This document shows positions 1,611-30,727 of a stretch of 64,000 nt of DNA, piece by piece (positions within the stretch are counted from its first letter, which is position 1; every line of letters begins with the position of its first letter). The notes under the pieces were generated by a model, which saw nothing but the letters and a program-made list of their open reading frames with translations, had not been told where the DNA came from and made no database searches. The position numbers and the translations under genes were made by a program. The stretch is from an uncultured Acidobacteriota bacterium (GTDB lineage Bacteria > Acidobacteriota > UBA6911): assembly GCA_963843575.1 (NCBI GenBank), contig CAWJKZ010000025.1:64001-128000 (forward strand). Direction: 5' to 3'.

Positions 1611-2953
1611 TTACAGCAGGTTGCTGGCGAGCTCCGCGAGTTCTGATCGCTCCCCCTTCTCCAGGTTCACGTGAGCGTACAGGCGCTGCCCCTTGAAGTG
1701 GTCGATCAGATACGAGAGCCCGTTGGACTGTCCATCGAGATATGGGTGGTCGATCTGGTAGATGTCGCCGGTGAGGACGAGTTTGGCGCCCTCGCCGGCG
1801 CGCGTGATGATTGTCTTGATCTCGTGGGGCGTAAGGTTTTGCGCTTCGTCCACGATGAAGATGACCTTCGACAGGCTCCTGCCGCGGATGTAGCTGAGCG
1901 GTTCGATGACGAGCTTCTCGTCCCGGATCATCTGGTCGATCTGCTGGAACTGCTTGTCGTCTTCGCCGAACTGGCTCTGGATCACCCTCAGGTTGTCCCA
2001 CAGGGGCTGCATGTAGGGGGCGAGCTTGCTCTCGATGTCCCCGGGCAGGTAACCCATGTCCTTGTTGCTGAGCGGAACGACGGGGCGGGCCATGAAGATC
2101 TGCCGGTACTGCTTTTTCACCTGAATGGCGCTGGCCAGCGCGCAGCAGCGTTTTGCCGGTGCCGGCCTTGCCGGTCAGCGTCACGAGCGGGATGCTGGTC
2201 CGGGTGAGCGCGTCGATGGCAAAGGTCTGCTCCGCGTTTCTCGGTTTGATGCCGTAGGCCGGCGACCTTGTCCAACCGTCGCAGCGAGGCGGAGTCGGTC
2301 TCGAAGAACGCGAGCGCCGACCGGCTGGCGTTGCGCAGGATGAAGTACTTGTTGGCGACGAGATCGAGCTTTAGGGAGGCCACCTGGGCGGCCGGGAGCT
2401 CGTAGGGAGGCTGGTACAGGGCCGTCAGGATTGCGTCGTCGACGTCCTCGACGATTTCCTTTCCGCTGTAGAGCTCCTCGATGCTGCGCACACGGTCCGT
2501 CGTGTAGTCCTGGGCTGGGATGCAAAGCGCCTTGGCCTTCATCCGCAGATTCACGTCCTTGGTGACCAGGATGACCGACTTTTTCCTGTGCGCCTTCTTG
2601 AACAGGTCGAGGGCCACGCTGAGGATGCGGTGATCGGGGTTGTCCTCGCGGAACACCTCCTGGATCTCGGGGCTCAGTCCCTTGGTGATCGCAACCCGGA
2701 CCTTCCCCTTCCCTCTCCCGAGAGAGATGCCGCCGTCGAATACGGCGTTCCCCGAAAGCGAATCGAGTGTCCGCGCGAACTCGCGGGCGTTGTAGTTGAT
2801 GACCTGGCTCCCGCGCTTGAAGTGGTCGATTTCCTCGATCACGGCCAGCGGGATGACGACGTCGTTCTCCTGGAAACGGTGGATGCAGGTCGCATCGTGC
2901 AGGATGACGTTCGTGTCGAGGATGAAGGTCTTGGCCCGTTTGGGTTCCGGCAT
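1611..2953 (-). CDS. PhoH2/YlaK-family PIN + PhoH ATPase, split by two frameshifts (~2262, ~2143)
   Basis: PIN motif [10 protein letters not shown]; Walker A GKAGTGKT in a second frame; RGRSL and IVDEAQN in a third frame. Confidence 0.85.
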
Positions 2954-2965
2954 GCCCTGATTATG

Positions 2966-4150
2966 TCACAGGGCACCAACCGAGGCGAGCGCCTGCTCGA
3001 GGTCTGCCTCCAGGTCGGCGGCATCCTCGATGCCGCACGAGAGGCGCACGAGCGAATCCGTGATCCCGTATCGGAGCCTCTCCTGCTCCGGAGTGTCCCA
3101 GTAGGACATCAGGACGGGCATCTCAACGAGGGATTCGACTCCGCCCAGGCTCGGCGCGATGTAGGGGATCCGGCAGCTGTCGACGAACCGGACGGCGGCG
3201 GCGAAACTCCCGTCGATCTCAAAGCTCACGACGCCCCCGAACCCGCTCATCAGCCGGGCGGCGCAGGCGTGGTCGGGGTGGCTTTCCAGTCCGGGGTAGT
3301 GGACCTTGCGCACGCGAGGATGATGCTCCAGCATGCGCGCTATCCTCAGGGCGTTGTCGTTCTGGCGCGCCACCCGAAGTGCCAGGGTCTTCAGCCCGCG
3401 CAGCAGCAGATAAGCGGTGTGGGCGGTGCTTATCCCCCCGAGCACGCCGACGGCCTTGCGCAGCGGCTCGACTTCGGCCGACTTGCCGGCCGCGATGCCG
3501 GCCAGCAGGTCGTTGTGACCGCCGAGGTACTTCGTCGCGCTGTGCAGCACGAGGTCGGCGCCGCTTTCGAGCGGCCGGTGATTGACCGGGGTGGCGAAGG
3601 TCGAATCGACGATAAACTTCGCTCCGCGCGCGTGGGCGATGCGGACCGCCTCGGGCAGGTCGATGACCCTCAGATATGGGTTCGTGGGCAGTTCGGTGAA
3701 AACGACCGCGGCCCCGTCGCGGAGGGCTCCCGCGAGTGCGTCCAGGCTGGCCGGTTCGATCACGGTCGTCCGGACGCCCAGCTTCGTGAGGAATTCGGCG
3801 CAGAACTGCCGCGTCCTCCGGTAGCAGTCGCTGGTGAGGACCAGGTGCCCCCCCGGTTCCAGCAACGTCAGCAAAGTCGTGGTTATCGCCGACATCCCCG
3901 AACCGAACAGGACGGCCGCCTCGGCCCCCTCGAGGTCGGCCACCTTGCGTTCGACCGCGCGCCACGTCGGGTTGCCGTAGCGGCCGTATTCGTCGCGGGG
4001 GCAGCCCCCTTCCTGGTAGGCGCGGACTTCGGCCGAATCTTTGAACCAGAACGTGGCAGTCTCGTAGATCGGGGTGGTCAGGGAACCGTCCCGCGAGGTG
4101 ATCCTCTCCCCGGCGTGGACGCAACGACTCGAGTAGCCTCCCTTTGCCAT
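2966..4150 (-). CDS. metB: Cystathionine gamma-synthase (Cys/Met PLP family), plant-type signature
   Basis: YGRYGNPT, DSTFATP, HSATKYLGGHND (PLP Lys), IAPSLGGVES, LVRLSCGIED. Confidence 0.85.
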   Translation of the reverse strand: MAKGGYSSRCVHAGERITSRDGSLTTPIYETATFWFKDSAEVRAYQEGGCPRDEYGRYGNPTWRAVERKVADLEGAEAAVLFGSGMSAITTTLLTLLEPGGHLVLTSDCYRRTRQFCAEFLTKLGVRTTVIEPASLDALAGALRDGAAVVFTELPTNPYLRVIDLPEAVRIAHARGAKFIVDSTFATPVNHRPLESGADLVLHSATKYLGGHNDLLAGIAAGKSAEVEPLRKAVGVLGGISTAHTAYLLLRGLKTLALRVARQNDNALRIARMLEHHPRVRKVHYPGLESHPDHACAARLMSGFGGVVSFEIDGSFAAAVRFVDSCRIPYIAPSLGGVESLVEMPVLMSYWDTPEQERLRYGITDSLVRLSCGIEDAADLEADLEQALASVGAL

Positions 4151-4193: not shown

Positions 4194-5978
4194 TCAGGCA
4201 GTCATCTCAGCGCGGGCGCGCAGGTCGGAATCCAGCCGCGCCGGTTCTGCCCGCCCGGTCACGATTTCCAGGAGATCGGCGCAGACCGACAGGCTGGTGG
4301 GCCACCGGCCCGCCCCTTTGCCGCTCAGCAGCACATCCCGCTTCCGTCCGCGGACCCGGATGAGAACCCGGTTCTCGACCCCGGCGGCCCTGCTCAGCGG
4401 GTGCTGCGACGGAAGTTCCTCGGGTCTCACCTCCGCCTCCAGTCCGGCCGCGGTTCGCCGGCAGGTGGCCACCAGACGCACGGCCTTGCCCTCCTCCCGT
4501 GCACGGCGCACCCGTTCGGGGCCGATCCCCTCGATGCCGCTGCACCGGACGGCATCGGGGTCGAGCGTCGCGCCGAAGGCGGTATGCGCCAGCACCGAGA
4601 GCTTCTGGGCGCTGTCGGCACCGCTCAGGTCGAGGTGCGGGTCGGCTTCGGCAAATCCCTGTCGTTGCGCCTCGCCCAGTGCCACCGAGAATTCCACACC
4701 TTCGGCCAGCTTTTCCAGCATGTAATTGCACGTTCCGTTCAGCACTCCGGACACCTGCTCGATCGTGTGATGCCGTGCAAGCAGCCGGACGCGTTCGAGC
4801 ACCGGGACGGCGCCCCCCACGCTCGCCGAGTAAAGGAGGCGGGCGCCGCTGCGGCAGGCGATTTGCCGCAGGCCCTCGCCGTGGCGCGCGATCACGGCCT
4901 TGTTGGCGGTCACCACGCTGCGCCCGGCCGCGAGGGCGGACCGTATGAGGGATCCCGCGGGCTCCAACCCTCCGATCAGTTCGAGCACGACGTCGGTCGG
5001 CCGCTCAAGCAGGCGCGCGGGGTCGTCTGTCAGAAGCTCCCGCGGCACCCGACGGTCGCGTGATTTGCCGATGTTTCGCACCGCGATGCCGGTCAGCTCG
5101 AAGAGGTCGGGCCGGGCCGCCAGCTTCTCGAAGACCCCCATCCCGACCGTGCCCAGCCCGAGCAATGCGACGCGCAGGGGGCGCGCCCGCGGTCCGGGCT
5201 CCCCGGGTGCCGAGGTCGCCGTCCCGATCACGGTTTCGTCGGACGAACAGGCCGAAGCGAGCGCGAACGTGTACCCCCGCGCACGCGCAAATTGAAGGGC
5301 CTTGGGCTGGATCAGCCGACCCGAGACACGCGCTGCGTCCTCCCAGGAGATGGAGGAATACCGTCTCGCCGAGGCACCCGTTCGGGGATCCGTAGAGTAC
5401 ACGCCGTCGACATCCTTCAGCAGCCGGCATTTCCCCGCCCGAAGGCTCCATGCCGCAAACAGCGCGGTCAGATCGGAGCCGCCGCGTCCGAGAAGCGCCG
5501 GGCCGCCGGACGCGCTCCGGCCGAAAAAACCGGGCAACACGACGACGGGGGTGCGGGCCAGAAACCCGAGCAGCCTGCGGGTGTCGAGGGCCACCGGTTC
5601 GGAGTCGAGCGGGGGCCCGGCGACAAGCAACCCGACAGCTTCCGGGTCAACTACGGAGGCCGGCACGCCGGCCTCCTCGAGCGCCATCCCGAGCAGGGCC
5701 GCGGACGCGGTTTCGCCCGTGGCGAGCAGCCGGGCAAGGCAGCCGGGATCCGGGGCCGCGAAGCGCCGCCCGGCCAGGCCGGCCAGGCGGTCCGTGACTC
5801 CCGGGAAAGCCGACACGACGGCCAGAACGCGGAAGCCGCGCCGGAGCTCGCGGTAAATCTCCGCTACGGCGGCGTCCAGGTCGCTCGCACCGCGCAGGAC
5901 GGAGCTGCCGAACTTCAGTACGGCTACGGGTTCGGAACCGGCAGGAAGGGTGGAAACGGATGCAGGATCGTTCGACAC
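4194..5978 (-). CDS. Aspartokinase-like domain fused to homoserine dehydrogenase, no ACT domains
   Basis: KFGSS, VVSA, LGRGGSD, DVDGVYSTDP; then GLGTVG, VTANK, GVLNGTCNY, GFAEADP, GAGRWPT; SD GAGGAG before GTG. Confidence 0.85.
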   Translation of the reverse strand: MSNDPASVSTLPAGSEPVAVLKFGSSVLRGASDLDAAVAEIYRELRRGFRVLAVVSAFPGVTDRLAGLAGRRFAAPDPGCLARLLATGETASAALLGMALEEAGVPASVVDPEAVGLLVAGPPLDSEPVALDTRRLLGFLARTPVVVLPGFFGRSASGGPALLGRGGSDLTALFAAWSLRAGKCRLLKDVDGVYSTDPRTGASARRYSSISWEDAARVSGRLIQPKALQFARARGYTFALASACSSDETVIGTATSAPGEPGPRARPLRVALLGLGTVGMGVFEKLAARPDLFELTGIAVRNIGKSRDRRVPRELLTDDPARLLERPTDVVLELIGGLEPAGSLIRSALAAGRSVVTANKAVIARHGEGLRQIACRSGARLLYSASVGGAVPVLERVRLLARHHTIEQVSGVLNGTCNYMLEKLAEGVEFSVALGEAQRQGFAEADPHLDLSGADSAQKLSVLAHTAFGATLDPDAVRCSGIEGIGPERVRRAREEGKAVRLVATCRRTAAGLEAEVRPEELPSQHPLSRAAGVENRVLIRVRGRKRDVLLSGKGAGRWPTSLSVCADLLEIVTGRAEPARLDSDLRARAEMTA

Positions 5979-6043
5979 GACAGGTTCTCCTCGAGGTGAC
6001 GCGTTGACTGGACCCGGAAAGGCCGCCGGGCCGATCCGGGCAT

Positions 6044-6077
6044 AAAAAAAGCACCGCCCTTTTTTGCCGGGCCGTGC
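6044..6077 (-). terminator. Attenuator terminator upstream of the met operon
   Basis: Minus strand GCACGGCCC-GGCAAAAAA-GGGCGGTGC followed by T7 (8 of 9 stem positions pair). Confidence 0.7.
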
Positions 6078-6127
6078 CGCGTCACGCAGAGAAGAACTTT
6101 GGTGCCCAGTTCGTCAACGCGAACGCG

Positions 6128-6190
6128 TCACACGCCCGGCACGGGCATGTACATGCGCATTCGCATCGTAAAACGGGTCACGTCGCTCAA
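6128..6190 (-). CDS. Met-rich leader peptide MSDVTRFTMRMRMYMPVPGV
   Basis: TTG start 8 nt after GAGGA; ATG codons at 6166, 6160, 6154, 6148; TGA at 6130-6128. Confidence 0.75.
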   Translation of the reverse strand: MSDVTRFTMRMRMYMPVPGV

Positions 6191-6215
6191 TTTCGCAGTC
6201 CTCGAACTGATTGGA

Positions 6216-6245
6216 AGCGTAGCCGAGGTGAGGCGTGGCTGTCAA
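6216..6245 (-). promoter_or_regulatory. Sigma70-type promoter of the met leader
   Basis: TTGACA (6245-6240)-18 nt-TACGCT (6221-6216). Confidence 0.65.
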
Positions 6246-6371
6246 GCGGCAGGTGCGGGGCGACACCTGTGTCGTGCCGTCCCCTGCCGCGCCCTGCCTG
6301 ATTGAGTCTGCGGCGAAGCCCGAGGAGAGTGGTCGCCGAGATGAAAACGAATCCGGCGCGACGGGCACGGC

Positions 6372-6508: not shown

Positions 6509-7439
6509 ATGAGCCAGCGGGAATTTGTCGCCCTGGGCACCGCCAGCCAGGCGCCCGACGCGGGAGAGAAGCCACAACAGCTACTTTCTTCGGTGGGACG
6601 ACGGCGGGTTCCTGTTCGACCCCGGCGAGGGCACACAGCGTCAGCTCATCTACGCGGAGATCCCCGCATGCGCCATCCGGCGCGTCTGCATCACCCACTT
6701 CCACGGCGATCACTGCCTCGGGCTTCCCGGCCTGCTCCAGCGCATGTCTCTCGACGGCTGCGGCCACCCGGTGGAGGTGTACTACCCCGAAGAGGGGCAG
6801 CCCTACTTCGAGCGGTTGCGGTCGGCGTCGGTGTTCTTCCCGCAGCTGGACATCCTTGCGCGCCCGGTCTGCTCGGCGCGGGAGGGTTTGATCGAGTTGC
6901 GGCGGTCGGATGAGTACGTGTTATACGCGCATGCCCTGGAGCACTCGGTTCCGACGCTCGGCTACCGTATCGAGGAGTTGCCCCGGCGCCATTTCATTCC
7001 GGCAAGACTGGCGGAGGCGGGCGTTTCGGGGGCTGCCGTCGGCGAGCTGCTCCGGCACGGCGCGGTGTGCGTGGAGGGGCGGGAAGTCACACTCGAGGAG
7101 ACAACGGTGATGAGGCAGGGGAGCGTCGTCGCCTTCGTGATGGACACACGACCCTGTGCCGGGGCGACCGCGCTGGCGCGCGACGCCGACTTGCTGGTGA
7201 TGGAGGCGACGTTCGCCGCGCCGGAAGAAGCCCTCGCTGCATCCTATCGTCACTCGACGGCGCGGGAGGCCGCCCAGACGGCGCGCGACGCGAGCGCGCA
7301 CCGGCTGGCCCTGACGCACTTTTCGGCGCGCTACCCCGACACCACCCCCCTCCTCGCGGAAGCCTGCGAGGTGTTCCTGGAAACCATCGCCCTGCGGGAC
7401 TTCGACCGGGTCGGCATCCCCAGGCGCCGGCAGGGATAA
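6509..7439 (+). CDS. rnz: Ribonuclease Z (frameshift near 6555)
   Basis: MSQREFVALGTASQAP continues in another frame as TRERSHNS; DPGEGTQRQ, THFHGDHCLG, DTRPC, MEATF, HST, LTHFSARY. Confidence 0.9.
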
Positions 7440-30517: not shown

Positions 30518-30545
30518 GGTTCCGAGGCCTCCTGTTGCCTGCGCC

Positions 30546-30585
30546 AAAAAGAAAAGGGCCGTCATCCCGGTTCGGGTGACGGCCC
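30546..30585 (-). terminator. ilv attenuator terminator
   Basis: GGGCCGTCACCC-GAACC-GGGATGACGGCCC followed by TTTTCTTTTT. Confidence 0.9.
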
Positions 30586-30610
30586 CTGGTGTTCCAGGTT
30601 CTCCTAGCCG

Positions 30611-30727
30611 TCATCCGAACCGCACGAGGCGGACGATGATAATGCCGATAATAAGTACGAGTACTACGGACAGGGATGTATCGCGCGCTGCGGTCCGGCC
30701 AAATTCGTTCAGGCTCTTCAGTGACAT
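30611..30727 (-). CDS. ilvL: ilv leader peptide MSLKSLNEFGRTAARDTSLSVVLVLIIGIIIVRLVRFG
   Basis: Run of Val/Leu/Ile codons; its 3' end GGTTCGGATGACGGC pairs with the terminator 5' arm. Confidence 0.88.
   Translation of the reverse strand: MSLKSLNEFGRTAARDTSLSVVLVLIIGIIIVRLVRFG

What the first reader, a model, noticed from the sequence alone, without database searches (positions are those of the whole stretch)
6044..6245. Candidate methionine-sensing leader-peptide transcription attenuator
Seen on the minus strand, in order: promoter TTGACA-18-TACGCT; SD GAGGA; a 20-codon ORF MSDVTRFTMRMRMYMPVPGV with four internal ATG codons spaced every 6 nt (6166, 6160, 6154, 6148) plus two Thr codons; then a terminator hairpin with T7 (6077-6044) about 65 nt before the AK-HSDH/CGS operon. 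The leader's last codons are complementary to the terminator's 5' arm (CCGTGCC 6144-6138 with GGCACGG 6078-6072; TGCCGGGC 6141-6134 with GCCCGGCA 6072-6065). A ribosome stalled at the early Met codons would leave this antiterminator free, while one reaching the stop would mask it. Known: classical attenuators are established for trp, his, phe, leu, thr and ilv, whereas met genes are normally controlled by MetJ/MetR, SAM riboswitches or T-boxes. I know of no established Met-codon attenuator, but I could not check the literature. The ilv attenuator at 30.6 kb has the same architecture.
Basis: partly seen in the sequence, partly recalled or inferred. Interest (0 to 1): 0.92.

Follow-up and report, generated by a model that had tools for sequence, protein, structure and literature searches.

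The report
Methionine-codon leader peptide transcription attenuator
A tiny upstream reading frame with four methionine codons, followed by a switchable terminator hairpin, most likely lets this soil bacterium turn on a methionine-synthesis operon when charged methionine tRNA runs short, a specificity I did not find described for this classical mechanism.

Summary

**Structure in the window**
- The leader has the classical four-region layout: region 1 (Met codons, 6168-6142), region 2 (6141-6115), region 3 (6090-6065), then the terminator and U7 (6078-6044).
- Pairings 1:2 and 2:3 are much stronger than shuffles (0/1000 and 1/1000). The non-cognate pairings are at chance.
- Masking a ribosome on the early Met or Thr codons favours the antiterminator by about 10 kcal/mol.

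**Comparative evidence**
- The window's leader has no close relative. More distant orthologous operons (Cys/Met-PLP enzyme with ACT-less AK-HSDH) carry the same kind of leader.
- L150 encodes ...CMRMHMPMPM....
- Thirteen Terriglobales genomes encode ...RMxMAM..PGG....SGV*. Their antiterminator covaries (97% paired, 5 compensatory pairs, 0/500 shuffles).
- A covariance model built only from the Terriglobales set hits the window leader (29 bits, E about 2-5e-5) and L150.
- Other orthologous operons carry SAM-II-like or SAM-I/IV-like elements instead. Alphaproteobacterial thrABC-type operons carry Thr/Ile/Met leaders.

**Limits**
- Nothing is shown experimentally.
- Nine literature searches found no Met-specific attenuator.

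**Verdict:** a real, conserved leader-peptide attenuator with Met specificity, which is a new variant of a known kind.

The parts
6240..6245 (-). -35 hexamer TTGACA
   Evidence: Read. A TTGACA followed 17 nt later by a TAnnnT hexamer stands upstream of the leader in the family members L111, L150 and L205-L213. The consensus scan did not call a promoter here.
6216..6221 (-). -10 hexamer TACGCT, 18-nt spacer, 3 of 6 matches to consensus
   Evidence: Read. It resembles the TATGCT of L211-L213. The inferred transcription start is near 6209.
6199..6203 (-). Shine-Dalgarno GAGGA, 8 nt before the TTG start
6128..6190 (-). Leader ORF: TTG start, 20 codons plus TGA, peptide MSDVTRFTMRMRMYMPVPGV
6146..6166 (-). 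Regulatory run ATG-CGA-ATG-CGC-ATG-TAC-ATG, four Met codons at alternate positions
   Evidence: The motif CGAATGNNNATGNNNATG is shared with L150 and the Terriglobales family.
6142..6168 (-). Region 1, the 5' arm of the 1:2 hairpin, holding the Met codons
   Evidence: Minimum-energy folds. The 1:2 duplex is -35.4 kcal/mol, with 0/1000 shuffles as good.
6115..6141 (-). Region 2, which pairs either with region 1 or with region 3 (antiterminator); it covers the last leader codons, the stop codon and 13 nt beyond
   Evidence: The 2:3 duplex is -38.7 kcal/mol, with 1/1000 shuffles as good.
6065..6090 (-). Region 3, the 3' strand of the antiterminator, which includes the terminator's 5' arm
   Evidence: The covariance model aligns it to the family's conserved GCCGCCUGGG strand.
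6044..6078 (-). Intrinsic terminator: stem 6078-6069 with 6059-6050, a 9-nt loop, and U7 at 6050-6044
   Evidence: Near-identical environmental contigs vary at three places. One is 6051, where the change keeps a G.U pair. One is 6062, in the loop. The third is one extra base at the end of the T-run.
4194..5978 (-). First structural gene: 594-aa aspartate kinase (no ACT domains) fused to homoserine dehydrogenase
   Evidence: NCBIfam and Pfam scans: AA_kinase at residues 18-231, NAD_binding_3 at 274-383, Homoserine_dh at 392-570.
2966..4150 (-). Second gene: 394-aa Cys/Met-metabolism PLP enzyme (cystathionine gamma-synthase family), 43 nt after the first gene
   Evidence: Pfam PF01053 at E 4.6e-128. 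All NCBIfam equivalog hits fall below their cutoffs, so the exact reaction is not assigned.

Best explanation
This is a classical ribosome-mediated transcription attenuator whose regulatory codons are methionine codons.

**Proposed mechanism**
- Transcription starts near 6209, and a ribosome begins the 20-codon leader at TTG 6190.
- When Met-tRNA(Met) is plentiful, the ribosome runs to the TGA at 6130 and covers region 2. Region 3 then pairs with region 4 (terminator 6078-6050 plus U7), and the transcript ends near 6044.
- If the leader is not translated at all, the 1:2 hairpin forms and the outcome is the same.
- When charged elongator tRNA(Met) is scarce, the ribosome stalls on the early AUG codons (6166-6154). 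This melts region 1 but leaves region 2 free. Region 2 then pairs with region 3 over about 26 bp, the terminator cannot form, and RNA polymerase reads into the operon.
- The operon encodes an ACT-less aspartate kinase-homoserine dehydrogenase and a cystathionine-gamma-synthase-family enzyme, which together feed methionine synthesis.

**Status of each step**
- Shown: the sequence features, the alternative pairings and their energies, and the conservation and covariation of the same design in related operons.
- Inferred: the transcription start, termination at 6044, stalling at AUG codons, and the response to methionine.
For: **Anatomy and energetics**
- All features are present at the stated coordinates.
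- The free fold gives the 1:2 hairpin plus terminator at -72.0 kcal/mol.
- With region 1 masked, the antiterminator state is -52.8 against -42.4 kcal/mol with the terminator enforced.
- Only the cognate pairings beat shuffles.

**Same design in orthologous operons**
- L150 has the closest AK-HSDH (53% identity over 288 residues). Its ORF reads ...HQHCMRMHMPMPMRGPG... and is followed by a hairpin and T7, upstream of a Cys/Met-PLP gene and then AK-HSDH.
- L111, L112 and L127 encode MTPLTGTRMYMGMCTPGG... followed by a terminator.
- A DNA search with the L111 leader found 13 of 301 Terriglobales genomes. All 13 hits lie upstream of a Cys/Met-PLP gene.
- Twelve of the 13 carry an R-M-x-M-x-M ORF, and one (L216) has only two internal Met codons.
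- In 8 of the 13, an AK-HSDH N-terminus follows within the fetched flank.

**Coding constraint in alignment A1**
- The ATG codons at columns 15-17 and 21-23 and the TGA stop are invariant.
- There are no gaps between columns 9 and 69.
- The only gap in the ORF is 3 nt long and in frame.
- The downstream spacer has many gaps.

**Structure conservation**
- RNAalifold's consensus is the antiterminator.
- 97.1% of cells are paired, against 36-54% in the slid controls.
- Five pairs show compensatory changes, in 12 cells.
- The covariation score is 0.330 against 0.233 in shuffles, reached by 0/500.
- The 1:2 hairpin plus terminator is 83.4% paired, against 31-54% in slid controls.

**Membership**
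- Model R1 was built only from the Terriglobales set.
- It matches the window at 6168-6034 (minus strand) over its full length: 29.0 bits, E 4.8e-5 in 139 kb and 2.3e-5 in 67 kb.
- It matches L150 at 25.6 bits.
- The next best hit scores 9.3 bits.

**Pathway logic**
- Orthologous operons elsewhere carry SAM_alpha-like elements (L118: 34.3 bits, E 3e-6; G182: 28.1 bits, E 0.001) or a SAM-I/IV-like element (G061: 32.8 bits, E 0.009), each before a terminator-like hairpin.
- This marks the operon type as under methionine/SAM feedback.

**The organism uses this mechanism elsewhere**
- An ilv-type leader, MSLKSLNEFGRTAARDTSLSVVLVLIIGIIIVRLVRFG*, followed by a terminator, stands at 30727-30545.

**Weak hint of transcription**
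- A 264-nt contig from a metatranscriptome run covers 6194-5931, from the leader across the terminator into the gene.
Against: - There is no experiment. No transcript 5' or 3' end and no methionine response is shown.
- The window's leader has no close relative. Nothing real was found in 137 genomes of its class.
- The fused gene is absent from the 40 relatives searched, including the same-genus genome, which is 81% complete.
- The comparative support therefore comes from distant members.
- A sequence-only profile of the family does not pick the window leader out of its own genome. In nhmmer it ranks third, at 9.7 bits and E = 3.
- The 29-bit covariance-model hit would scale to roughly E 2e-3 genome-wide, and its calibration is rough.
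- The -10 hexamer is weak, and the consensus scan called neither a promoter nor a terminator.
- The stall window also holds 3 Arg, 2 Thr, 1 Phe and 1 Tyr codon.
- Methionine starvation should also lower charging of the initiator tRNA and so reduce leader initiation. With a 1:2 hairpin, that would favour termination. This is general knowledge, not a call.
- The second gene's reaction is unassigned, and its best NCBIfam hit is methionine gamma-lyase, below cutoff.
- The RNA-library contig could derive from contaminating DNA.
Confidence: 0.78

Rival explanations
1. The same terminator/antiterminator switch operates, but the conserved nascent peptide (R-M-x-M-A-M-C-x-P-G-G...) acts as an arrest peptide. 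It would stall the ribosome in response to free methionine or SAM in the exit tunnel, rather than sensing uncharged tRNA(Met).
For: - The peptide is strikingly conserved across 13 Terriglobales genomes, including the tail PGG....SGV*.
- The Met codons alternate rather than run consecutively.
- Ligand-sensing arrest peptides exist. That is recalled, not from a call.
Against: - Most of the conserved non-Met codons lie in conserved, partly covarying helices. CGA is in the 1:2 stem. CCNGGNGG is the antiterminator strand. UCGGG is the 3' arm. RNA structure therefore explains their conservation.
- The positions between the Met codons vary in amino acid: Y, T, S or F at one, A or G at another, C, R or P at a third.
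- The window and L150 share only the Met run and a following P-G with the Terriglobales peptide.
- An arrest triggered by abundant methionine or SAM would switch the operon on when the product is plentiful, which is the wrong sign.
Confidence: 0.06
2. The short ORF is incidental. Control is by a DNA- or RNA-binding protein that recognises the palindrome GCATGTACATGC (CATGGCCATG in the family), acting as a roadblock or an antiterminator protein.
For: - A perfect 12-nt palindrome lies at 6156-6145.
- CATGGCCATG is present in 12 of the 15 A1 rows, including L216, which has lost the first Met codon.
- L046 (Myxococcota), which has the same gene order, has long palindromes at its promoter instead of a leader.
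Against: - Any C-ATG-NN(C)-ATG run is close to palindromic because CATG is self-complementary.
- L205, L111 and L112 have ATGGGCATG, which is not a palindrome, yet keep the Met codons and the frame.
- The element lies about 50-60 nt inside the transcript, not at the promoter.
- This reading does not explain four observations: the invariant stop codon, the absence of frame-breaking gaps, the start codons, and the covarying antiterminator.
Confidence: 0.05
3. It is an unrecognised riboswitch that binds SAM or methionine directly. Translation of the ORF plays no part.
For: - Orthologous operons use SAM riboswitch-like elements with terminators.
- The leader is highly structured.
Against: - No Rfam family matches, even at E up to 10.
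- The structure is a simple pair of mutually exclusive hairpins, with no conserved unpaired pocket.
- The invariant features are ATG codons, a reading frame and a stop codon.
Confidence: 0.04
4. It is a general translation-coupled attenuator that reports overall translation capacity, or Arg/Thr supply, rather than methionine specifically.
For: - The stall window contains 3 Arg codons (one of them CGA) and 2 Thr codons.
- CGA is nearly invariant in the family.
Against: - Only the Met codons are conserved as codons across the window, L150 and the Terriglobales family.
- The Thr codons are not conserved.
- CGA sits in a stem whose pairs are kept (pairs 6:53, 7:52 and 8:51).
- The operon content and the SAM-sensing alternatives in orthologs point to methionine.
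Confidence: 0.05

Closest known systems
E. coli-type thr operon leader (thrL; Rfam Thr_leader RF00506)
   Same: - A leader-peptide attenuator directly upstream of an aspartate kinase-homoserine dehydrogenase gene.
- A short ORF, an intrinsic terminator and mutually exclusive hairpins.
   Different: - Its regulatory codons are Thr and Ile, not Met. This is recalled, not from a call.
- Its thrA carries regulatory domains and sits with thrB and thrC.
- Thr_leader was not among the matches to the window at E up to 10.
- Here the partner gene is a Cys/Met-PLP enzyme.
trp and his operon attenuators (classical 1:2 / 2:3 / 3:4 model)
   Same: - The same four-region logic.
- A ribosome stalled on the regulatory codons frees region 2. 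A ribosome at the stop codon masks it.
   Different: - The amino acid sensed is different.
- The Met codons are at alternate positions rather than adjacent.
- The host phylum is different: Acidobacteriota, inferred.
Thr/Ile/Met-rich leaders before ACT-less AK-HSDH-thrB-thrC operons of Sphingomonadales and Caulobacteraceae
   Same: - The same gene family downstream, at 40-45% identity.
- Leader ORFs ending 50-60 nt before a GC hairpin and a T5-T7 run.
- Many include 2-4 Met codons, for example ...TMMLTIITTRMRDGTG*.
   Different: - They are dominated by Thr and Ile.
- Twenty of the 28 sit before thrB, with or without thrC.
- There is no nucleotide similarity to the window leader.
- They were not matched by Rfam Thr_leader in the one case tested.
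Pasteurellales thrA attenuator predicted to respond also to methionine (Vitreschak et al. 2004, FEMS Microbiol Lett)
   Same: Met codons used as regulatory codons in a leader before an AK-HSDH gene.
   Different: - As I recall it, Met codons there accompany Thr and Ile codons in a thr leader.
- The paper is not held, so this comparison rests on recall of its abstract only.
SAM-II (SAM_alpha, RF00521) and SAM-I/IV (RF01725) riboswitches
   Same: - They occupy the same position, upstream of the orthologous Cys/Met-PLP and AK-HSDH operons, and end in a terminator-like hairpin.
- The output is the same: premature termination when the pathway product is plentiful.
   Different: - They sense SAM by direct RNA binding, with no ORF.
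- The window shows no match to any SAM riboswitch family.

Membership tests
Classical leader-peptide transcription attenuator | A short ORF with ribosome binding site and start codon between the promoter and the first structural gene | tested here: met
   GAGGA, then 8 nt, then TTG, then 20 codons and TGA.
Classical leader-peptide transcription attenuator | A cluster of codons for the amino acid made by the downstream operon | tested here: met
   - Four ATG fall within 7 codons.
- Only 71 such six-frame windows exist in 6.68 Mb.
- The operon encodes AK-HSDH and a Cys/Met-PLP enzyme.
- The assignment of the operon to methionine synthesis is inferred.
Classical leader-peptide transcription attenuator | An intrinsic terminator upstream of the structural gene | tested here: met
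   - A GC-rich hairpin at 6078-6050 with U7 lies 65 nt before the GTG.
- The simple scan did not call it.
Classical leader-peptide transcription attenuator | Mutually exclusive 1:2, 2:3 and 3:4 pairings, positioned so that a stall at the regulatory codons frees region 2 | tested here: met
   The stall holds for Met2 and Met3 and for the Thr codons. Met4 lies too close to region 2, and a Met1 stall still gave the terminator in the minimum-energy fold.
Classical leader-peptide transcription attenuator | Readthrough rises when the cognate tRNA is uncharged | not testable with these tools
   This needs a reporter assay, Term-seq or Ribo-seq under methionine limitation.
Met-run leader family defined here from Terriglobales (alignment A1, model R1) | A significant full-length match to the covariance model | tested here: met
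   - The window scores 29.0 bits, E 2.3e-5 to 4.8e-5, over model positions 1-135.
- The sequence-only nhmmer profile is not significant genome-wide (E = 3), so the window is a distant member.
Met-run leader family defined here from Terriglobales (alignment A1, model R1) | The motif CGA-ATG-NNN-ATG-NNN-ATG in frame, followed by a CCNGG strand that pairs with the terminator's 5' arm | tested here: met
Met-run leader family defined here from Terriglobales (alignment A1, model R1) | Location upstream of a Cys/Met-PLP gene linked to ACT-less AK-HSDH | tested here: met
   - The same two genes are present, but in the opposite order in the window.
- In every case the leader precedes whichever gene comes first.
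SAM riboswitches (SAM-I, SAM-II, SAM-I/IV and others) and T-box | A match to the Rfam covariance model | tested here: not met
   - No hits at gathering thresholds over the whole window.
- Only four chance-level hits (E 5-8) to unrelated families in 5950-6300.
Rfam Thr_leader, Trp_leader, His_leader and Leu_leader | A match to the Rfam covariance model | tested here: not met

The most novel reading that the evidence does not exclude
This element and its relatives are a previously undescribed 'Met leader'. It would be a family of classical leader-peptide attenuators in Acidobacteriota that senses charging of elongator tRNA(Met) through alternating AUG codons.

- It controls a dedicated methionine branch: an ACT-less aspartate kinase-homoserine dehydrogenase plus transsulfuration-type PLP enzymes.
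- It has repeatedly changed places with SAM-II and SAM-I/IV riboswitches on orthologous operons.
- That would add methionine to the amino acids governed by ribosome-mediated attenuation.
- It would also show that a cell can use AUG both as the start signal and as the starvation sensor of the same leader.
Probability: 0.6. Interest if true: 0.72.

Novelty: new variant of a known kind. Interest (0 to 1): 0.66.

Why it matters
**Amino-acid range of attenuation**
- In passages of a 2013 survey (PMC3766115), attenuator specificities are given as His, Leu, Thr and Trp, plus Ile/Val and Phe.
- In a term search of a 2014 survey of methionine regulation in Proteobacteria (PMC4239095), 'leader peptide' and 'attenuat' do not occur.
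- A methionine-codon attenuator would extend the mechanism to an amino acid usually handled by SAM riboswitches, T-boxes or repressors.

**An open mechanistic question**
- Methionine limitation should also reduce charging of the initiator tRNA. How the leader still gets translated under those conditions becomes directly testable here.

**Regulatory turnover on one gene family**
- The same ACT-less AK-HSDH gene family carries four different sensors in different lineages: a Met leader, a Thr/Ile/Met leader, a SAM-II-like element and a SAM-I/IV-like element.
- Which sensor is present tracks the operon partner. thrB/thrC goes with the Thr/Ile/Met leader. The leaders and SAM-like elements seen next to a Cys/Met-PLP enzyme all point to methionine or SAM.

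**Practical use**
- It assigns a function to an operon and to leader ORFs in Acidobacteriota. [quoted passage not shown]

Tried and rejected
**Close relatives of the window**
- The fused AK-HSDH was not found full-length in 40 relatives.
- It was found in only 5 of 401 phylum genomes, counting G000.
- The window-leader DNA search in its class (137 genomes) gave only the self hit and two 30-nt matches at E 0.007-0.008.

**Searches for more family members**
- The covariance-model search through the genome search (151 genomes) returned nothing, not even G000. It is therefore uninformative.
- The pattern CGAATGNNNATGNNNATG matched in 123 of 401 phylum genomes. The reversed control pattern also matched often.
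- Of 20 hand-picked matches that I fetched, only one (G327) is a real leader. It is the same sequence as G471/L215. The other 19 showed no leader-like layout, and most look like coding sequence.
- About 150 matches were not examined.

**Scans of the window's own genome**
- My crude scan for a terminator preceded by a short ORF was too noisy to use, and it missed the ilv leader.
- A look-alike peptide at C24:13074 lies in coding sequence.
- nhmmer hits at C12 and C21 are also coding sequence.

**Rfam**
- At gathering thresholds, Rfam found nothing in 20 homologous loci.
- The SAM-like elements appear only below their gathering scores.
- My count of 25 'SAM-II-like' loci rests on a regular expression. 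Only L118 and L196 were scored, and L083 and L088 may be false.

**Phylogeny**
- The tree does not resolve whether the Met-leader operons form one clade.
- The window sits in a polytomy, and L150 (partial) joins a long branch.

**Sequencing runs**
- All 15 listed runs hold small shares of the query words (0.18 or less).
- One RNA run (X6) laid nothing.
- No transcript ends can be read from contigs.
- The absence of cover upstream of 6194 in X8 is not evidence.

**Tools and papers not available**
- Vitreschak 2004 is not held.
- Supplementary files were not consulted and may list further leaders.

**Literature searches**
- Searches found no Met-specific leader-peptide attenuator.
- The library lacks most subscription journals.
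Full report
**1. The observation**

- Promoter: TTGACA 6245-6240, an 18-nt spacer, TACGCT 6221-6216.
- Ribosome binding site: GAGGA 6203-6199, 8 nt before the start.
- Leader ORF: 6190-6128, translating to MSDVTRFTMRMRMYMPVPGV*. The start codon is TTG.
- Internal ATG codons: 6166, 6160, 6154 and 6148.
- Terminator: hairpin 6078-6050, with U7 at 6050-6044.
- Downstream genes: the T-run lies 65 nt before the GTG (5978) of a 594-aa protein. That protein has an aspartate kinase catalytic domain without ACT domains, fused to homoserine dehydrogenase. After a 43-nt gap comes a 394-aa Cys/Met-metabolism PLP enzyme of the cystathionine gamma-synthase family.

The run of Met codons is rare. The 6.68-Mb, 64.1% GC genome has 71 six-frame windows with at least 4 ATG in 7 codons. 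The simple consensus scan called neither a promoter nor a terminator here. The -10 hexamer matches only 3 of 6.

**2. The structure**

The minimum-energy fold has two parts. One is a long hairpin whose 5' arm carries the Met codons (region 1, 6168-6142) and whose 3' arm is region 2 (6138-6115). The other is the terminator. The fold z-score is -3.25.

I then masked a 30-nt ribosome footprint at successive positions.

| A-site codon | Predicted outcome |
|---|---|
| Thr5, Thr8, Met2, Met3 | antiterminator |
| Met1 | terminator (only a short inner hairpin remains) |
| Met4, stop | terminator |

In the antiterminator, 6141-6118 pairs with 6090-6065 over about 26 bp, which takes up the terminator's 5' arm.

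Pairwise duplex energies against 1000 shuffles:

| Pairing | Energy (kcal/mol) | Shuffle mean | Shuffles as good |
|---|---|---|---|
| 1:2 | -35.4 | -16.9 | 0/1000 |
| 2:3 | -38.7 | -23.5 | 1/1000 |
| 3:4 | -18.6 | -12.8 | 25/1000 |
| 1:3, 1:4, 2:4 | at chance | | |

With region 1 masked, the antiterminator state is -52.8 kcal/mol, against -42.4 with the terminator enforced. This is the classical four-region architecture.

**3. Known RNA families**

Rfam gave no hit at gathering thresholds in the whole window. In 5950-6300 it gave only chance-level hits to unrelated families, at E 5-8. The element is therefore not a known SAM riboswitch, T-box or leader family.

**4. Relatives of the operon**

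The fused AK-HSDH is not found full-length in 40 relatives, including the same-genus genome, which is 81% complete. It is found in only 5 of 401 genomes of the phylum, counting G000.

Scans of genome and metagenome collections returned 80 loci each, with identity of 53% or less. I classified 108 loci that hold the fused form. Some rows are duplicates between the two collections.

| Upstream element or neighbour | Loci |
|---|---|
| Thr/Ile/Met-rich leader ORF ending 50-60 nt before a hairpin and T-run | 28 |
| SAM-II-like motif, by my regular expression | 25 |
| Adjacent Cys/Met-PLP gene | 12 |
| None of these, but with upstream sequence | 40 |
| None of these, upstream sequence not available | 3 |

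- Of the 28 Thr/Ile/Met leaders, 20 are followed by thrB, with or without thrC. They come from Sphingomonadales and Caulobacteraceae.
- One SAM-II-like locus (L118) was scored by Rfam: SAM_alpha 34.3 bits, E 3e-6, just below the gathering score of 36.

**5. The key comparison**

In the closest homologs the gene order is reversed, with the PLP enzyme first and AK-HSDH second. The regulatory region therefore lies upstream of the PLP gene.

There, L150 (53% identity over 288 residues) encodes MSNLNEQPQHAVLHQHCMRMHMPMPMRGPGSGTFVGVSSIA*, followed by a hairpin and T7. L111, L112 and L127 encode MTPLTGTRMYMGMCTPGGDLSTSGK*, followed by a terminator. L113 holds only the 3' part.

Masked folds of L111 behave like the window. 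A stall at the first two internal Met codons gives the antiterminator, and later positions give the terminator. In L150 the antiterminator strand lies inside the ORF, so a ribosome that translates through disrupts it.

Other orthologs carry SAM-like elements at the same place:

| Locus | Element | Score |
|---|---|---|
| L037 (Pyrinomonadaceae) | SAM_alpha-like | by eye only |
| G182 | SAM_alpha-like | 28.1 bits, E 0.0011 |
| G061 | SAM-I/IV-like | 32.8 bits, E 0.009 |
| G127, L032 | look like SAM-I/IV | by eye only |
| G391 | nothing recognisable | |

All scored elements are below their gathering thresholds.

**6. A family**

In the tree, L031 (a Terriglobales MAG, Acidobacteriota) is nearly identical to L127. 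It lies in genome G425. A DNA search with the L111 leader in that order hit 13 of 301 genomes.

- All 13 hits lie upstream of a Cys/Met-PLP gene.
- Twelve encode ...R-M-x-M-(A/G)-M-(C/R/P)-x-(P/L)-G-G-....-S-(G/E/V)-(V/K/A)*.
- One (L216) keeps only two internal Met codons.
- In 8 of the 13, an AK-HSDH N-terminus follows within the fetched flank.
- In 4, a second PLP-enzyme fragment follows. In 1, nothing was seen.

Alignment A1 holds 15 rows, 14 of them distinct.

- The second and third ATG codons and the TGA stop are invariant.
- The only gap in the reading frame is 3 nt long and in frame.
- The spacer after the stop has many gaps.

The structure is also conserved.

| Structure | Cells paired | Slid controls | Other measures |
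|---|---|---|---|
| Antiterminator (RNAalifold consensus) | 97.1% | 36-54% | 5 compensatory pairs in 12 cells; covariation 0.330 vs 0.233, reached by 0/500 shuffles |
| 1:2 hairpin plus terminator | 83.4% | 31-54% | |

RNA pairing explains much of the peptide's apparent conservation. CGA lies in the 1:2 stem. CCNGGNGG is the antiterminator strand.

**7. Is the window a member?**

Model R1 was built from A1 alone.

- It matches the window at 6168-6034 over its full length: 29.0 bits, E 4.8e-5 in 139 kb and 2.3e-5 in 67 kb.
- It matches L150 at 25.6 bits.
- The next best hit scores 9.3 bits.

The alignment places the window's CGAAUG...AUG...CAUG, its GCCGGGC/GCCCGGC pairing and its GGCGGU-U7 on the family consensus.

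Against this, a sequence-only profile ranks the window leader third in its own genome, at E = 3, and the other hits there are coding sequence. I therefore call it a distant member, or at least the same design. I cannot say whether the similarity reflects common descent or convergence. The tree does not resolve this either.

**8. Other support and its limits**

- The same window holds a clear ilv-type leader (MSLKSLNEFGRTAARDTSLSVVLVLIIGIIIVRLVRFG*) with a terminator before an acetolactate synthase small-subunit-like gene. The organism therefore uses this mechanism elsewhere.
- A contig from a metatranscriptome run covers 6194-5931, from the leader across the terminator into the gene.
- Three near-identical environmental contigs differ from the window only at three places in this stretch. 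The first is 6051, which keeps a G.U pair in the terminator stem. The second is 6062, in the loop. The third is one extra base at the end of the T-run.
- Contigs cannot show transcript ends, and DNA carry-over is possible.

**9. Mechanism and rivals**

The best explanation is ribosome stalling at AUG codons when charged elongator tRNA(Met) is scarce. This frees region 2 and prevents termination.

Open points are these:
- The start-codon problem under methionine limitation.
- The three Arg codons in the stall window.
- The unassigned reaction of the PLP enzyme, whose best NCBIfam hit is methionine gamma-lyase, below cutoff.

Four rivals were considered: an arrest peptide, a protein operator at the CATG palindrome, a direct riboswitch, and a general translation sensor. 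They fit the invariant frame, the variable inter-Met residues and the covarying antiterminator less well.

**10. Novelty**

- Nine full-text searches found no Met-specific leader-peptide attenuator.
- Passages of PMC3766115 list the attenuator specificities as His, Leu, Thr and Trp, plus Ile/Val and Phe.
- PMC4239095, searched by term, has no occurrence of 'leader peptide' or 'attenuat'.
- Passages of PMC1262725 report no RNA element upstream of methionine operons in Actinobacteria.
- From memory only: the abstract of Vitreschak et al. 2004, which is not held, predicted Met codons alongside Thr and Ile codons in Pasteurellales thrA leaders. Cys-codon uORF attenuators are known in mycobacteria.

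I rate this a new variant of a known kind.

**11. Phylum**

The assignment to Acidobacteriota is inferred. G327 is in the same phylum as G000 and holds the same leader sequence as G471, which belongs to the order of the Terriglobales MAG. In addition, the AK-HSDH of G182, another same-phylum genome, groups with that of a Pyrinomonadaceae MAG.

Noticed in passing
window 30545-30727 (minus strand): An ilv-type leader ORF, MSLKSLNEFGRTAARDTSLSVVLVLIIGIIIVRLVRFG* (30727-30611), is followed by a GC hairpin and a T-rich run. It stands directly before a gene whose N-terminus I read as an acetolactate synthase small subunit. No large-subunit gene lies between them.
   Followed up: partly
L044, L045, L052-L057, L060, L071, L077, L091, L094 and 15 metagenome loci (L117-L170): In Sphingomonadales and Caulobacteraceae, the ACT-less AK-HSDH sits behind leader ORFs rich in Thr, Ile and Met, for example ...MTIMFTMITTRMRGGAG*. 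Twenty of the 28 continue into thrB, with or without thrC. Rfam's Thr_leader did not match L054, where the best hit was the sRNA Atu_C7 at 22 bits.
   Followed up: partly
L033-L043, L047, L048, L050, L114-L118, L122, L124, L130 and others: Stand-alone ACT-less AK-HSDH genes of Steroidobacteraceae and of unnamed soil contigs sit behind a SAM_alpha-like element and a terminator. The element scores just below Rfam's gathering threshold (L118: 34.3 against 36 bits), so such genomes may be missed by standard annotation.
   Followed up: partly
L046:2740-2960: A Myxococcota locus has the window's gene order (AK-HSDH then PLP enzyme) but no leader. Instead it has a 14-nt inverted repeat spanning a promoter-like TTGACG...TATGAC, plus further TGACGCG-type repeats, which may be a protein operator.
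   Followed up: no
window 6231-6300 (minus strand): A strong hairpin (GGCAGGGGACGGCAC...GTGTCGCCCCGCACCTGCC) lies immediately upstream of, and overlapping, the -35 hexamer. It sits in the divergent intergenic region facing the RNase Z gene (6525-7439, plus strand).
   Followed up: no
window 2117-2953 (minus strand): A 278-aa PIN_4-domain protein resembling the N-terminal part of PhoH2 starts 12 nt after the PLP-enzyme gene. It may be co-transcribed with the methionine operon.
   Followed up: no
L058-L090 and L137-L146 (Robiginitomaculaceae: Hellea, Litorimonas, Algimonas): About 38 marine alphaproteobacterial loci carry the same ACT-less AK-HSDH with none of the leaders, T-runs or SAM-like motifs that I screened for. 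How they are regulated is unknown.
   Followed up: no
L111-L113, L192, L193: In several operons the AK-HSDH gene is flanked on both sides by paralogous Cys/Met-PLP genes. This would fit a complete transsulfuration pair, but neither paralog was assigned.
   Followed up: no
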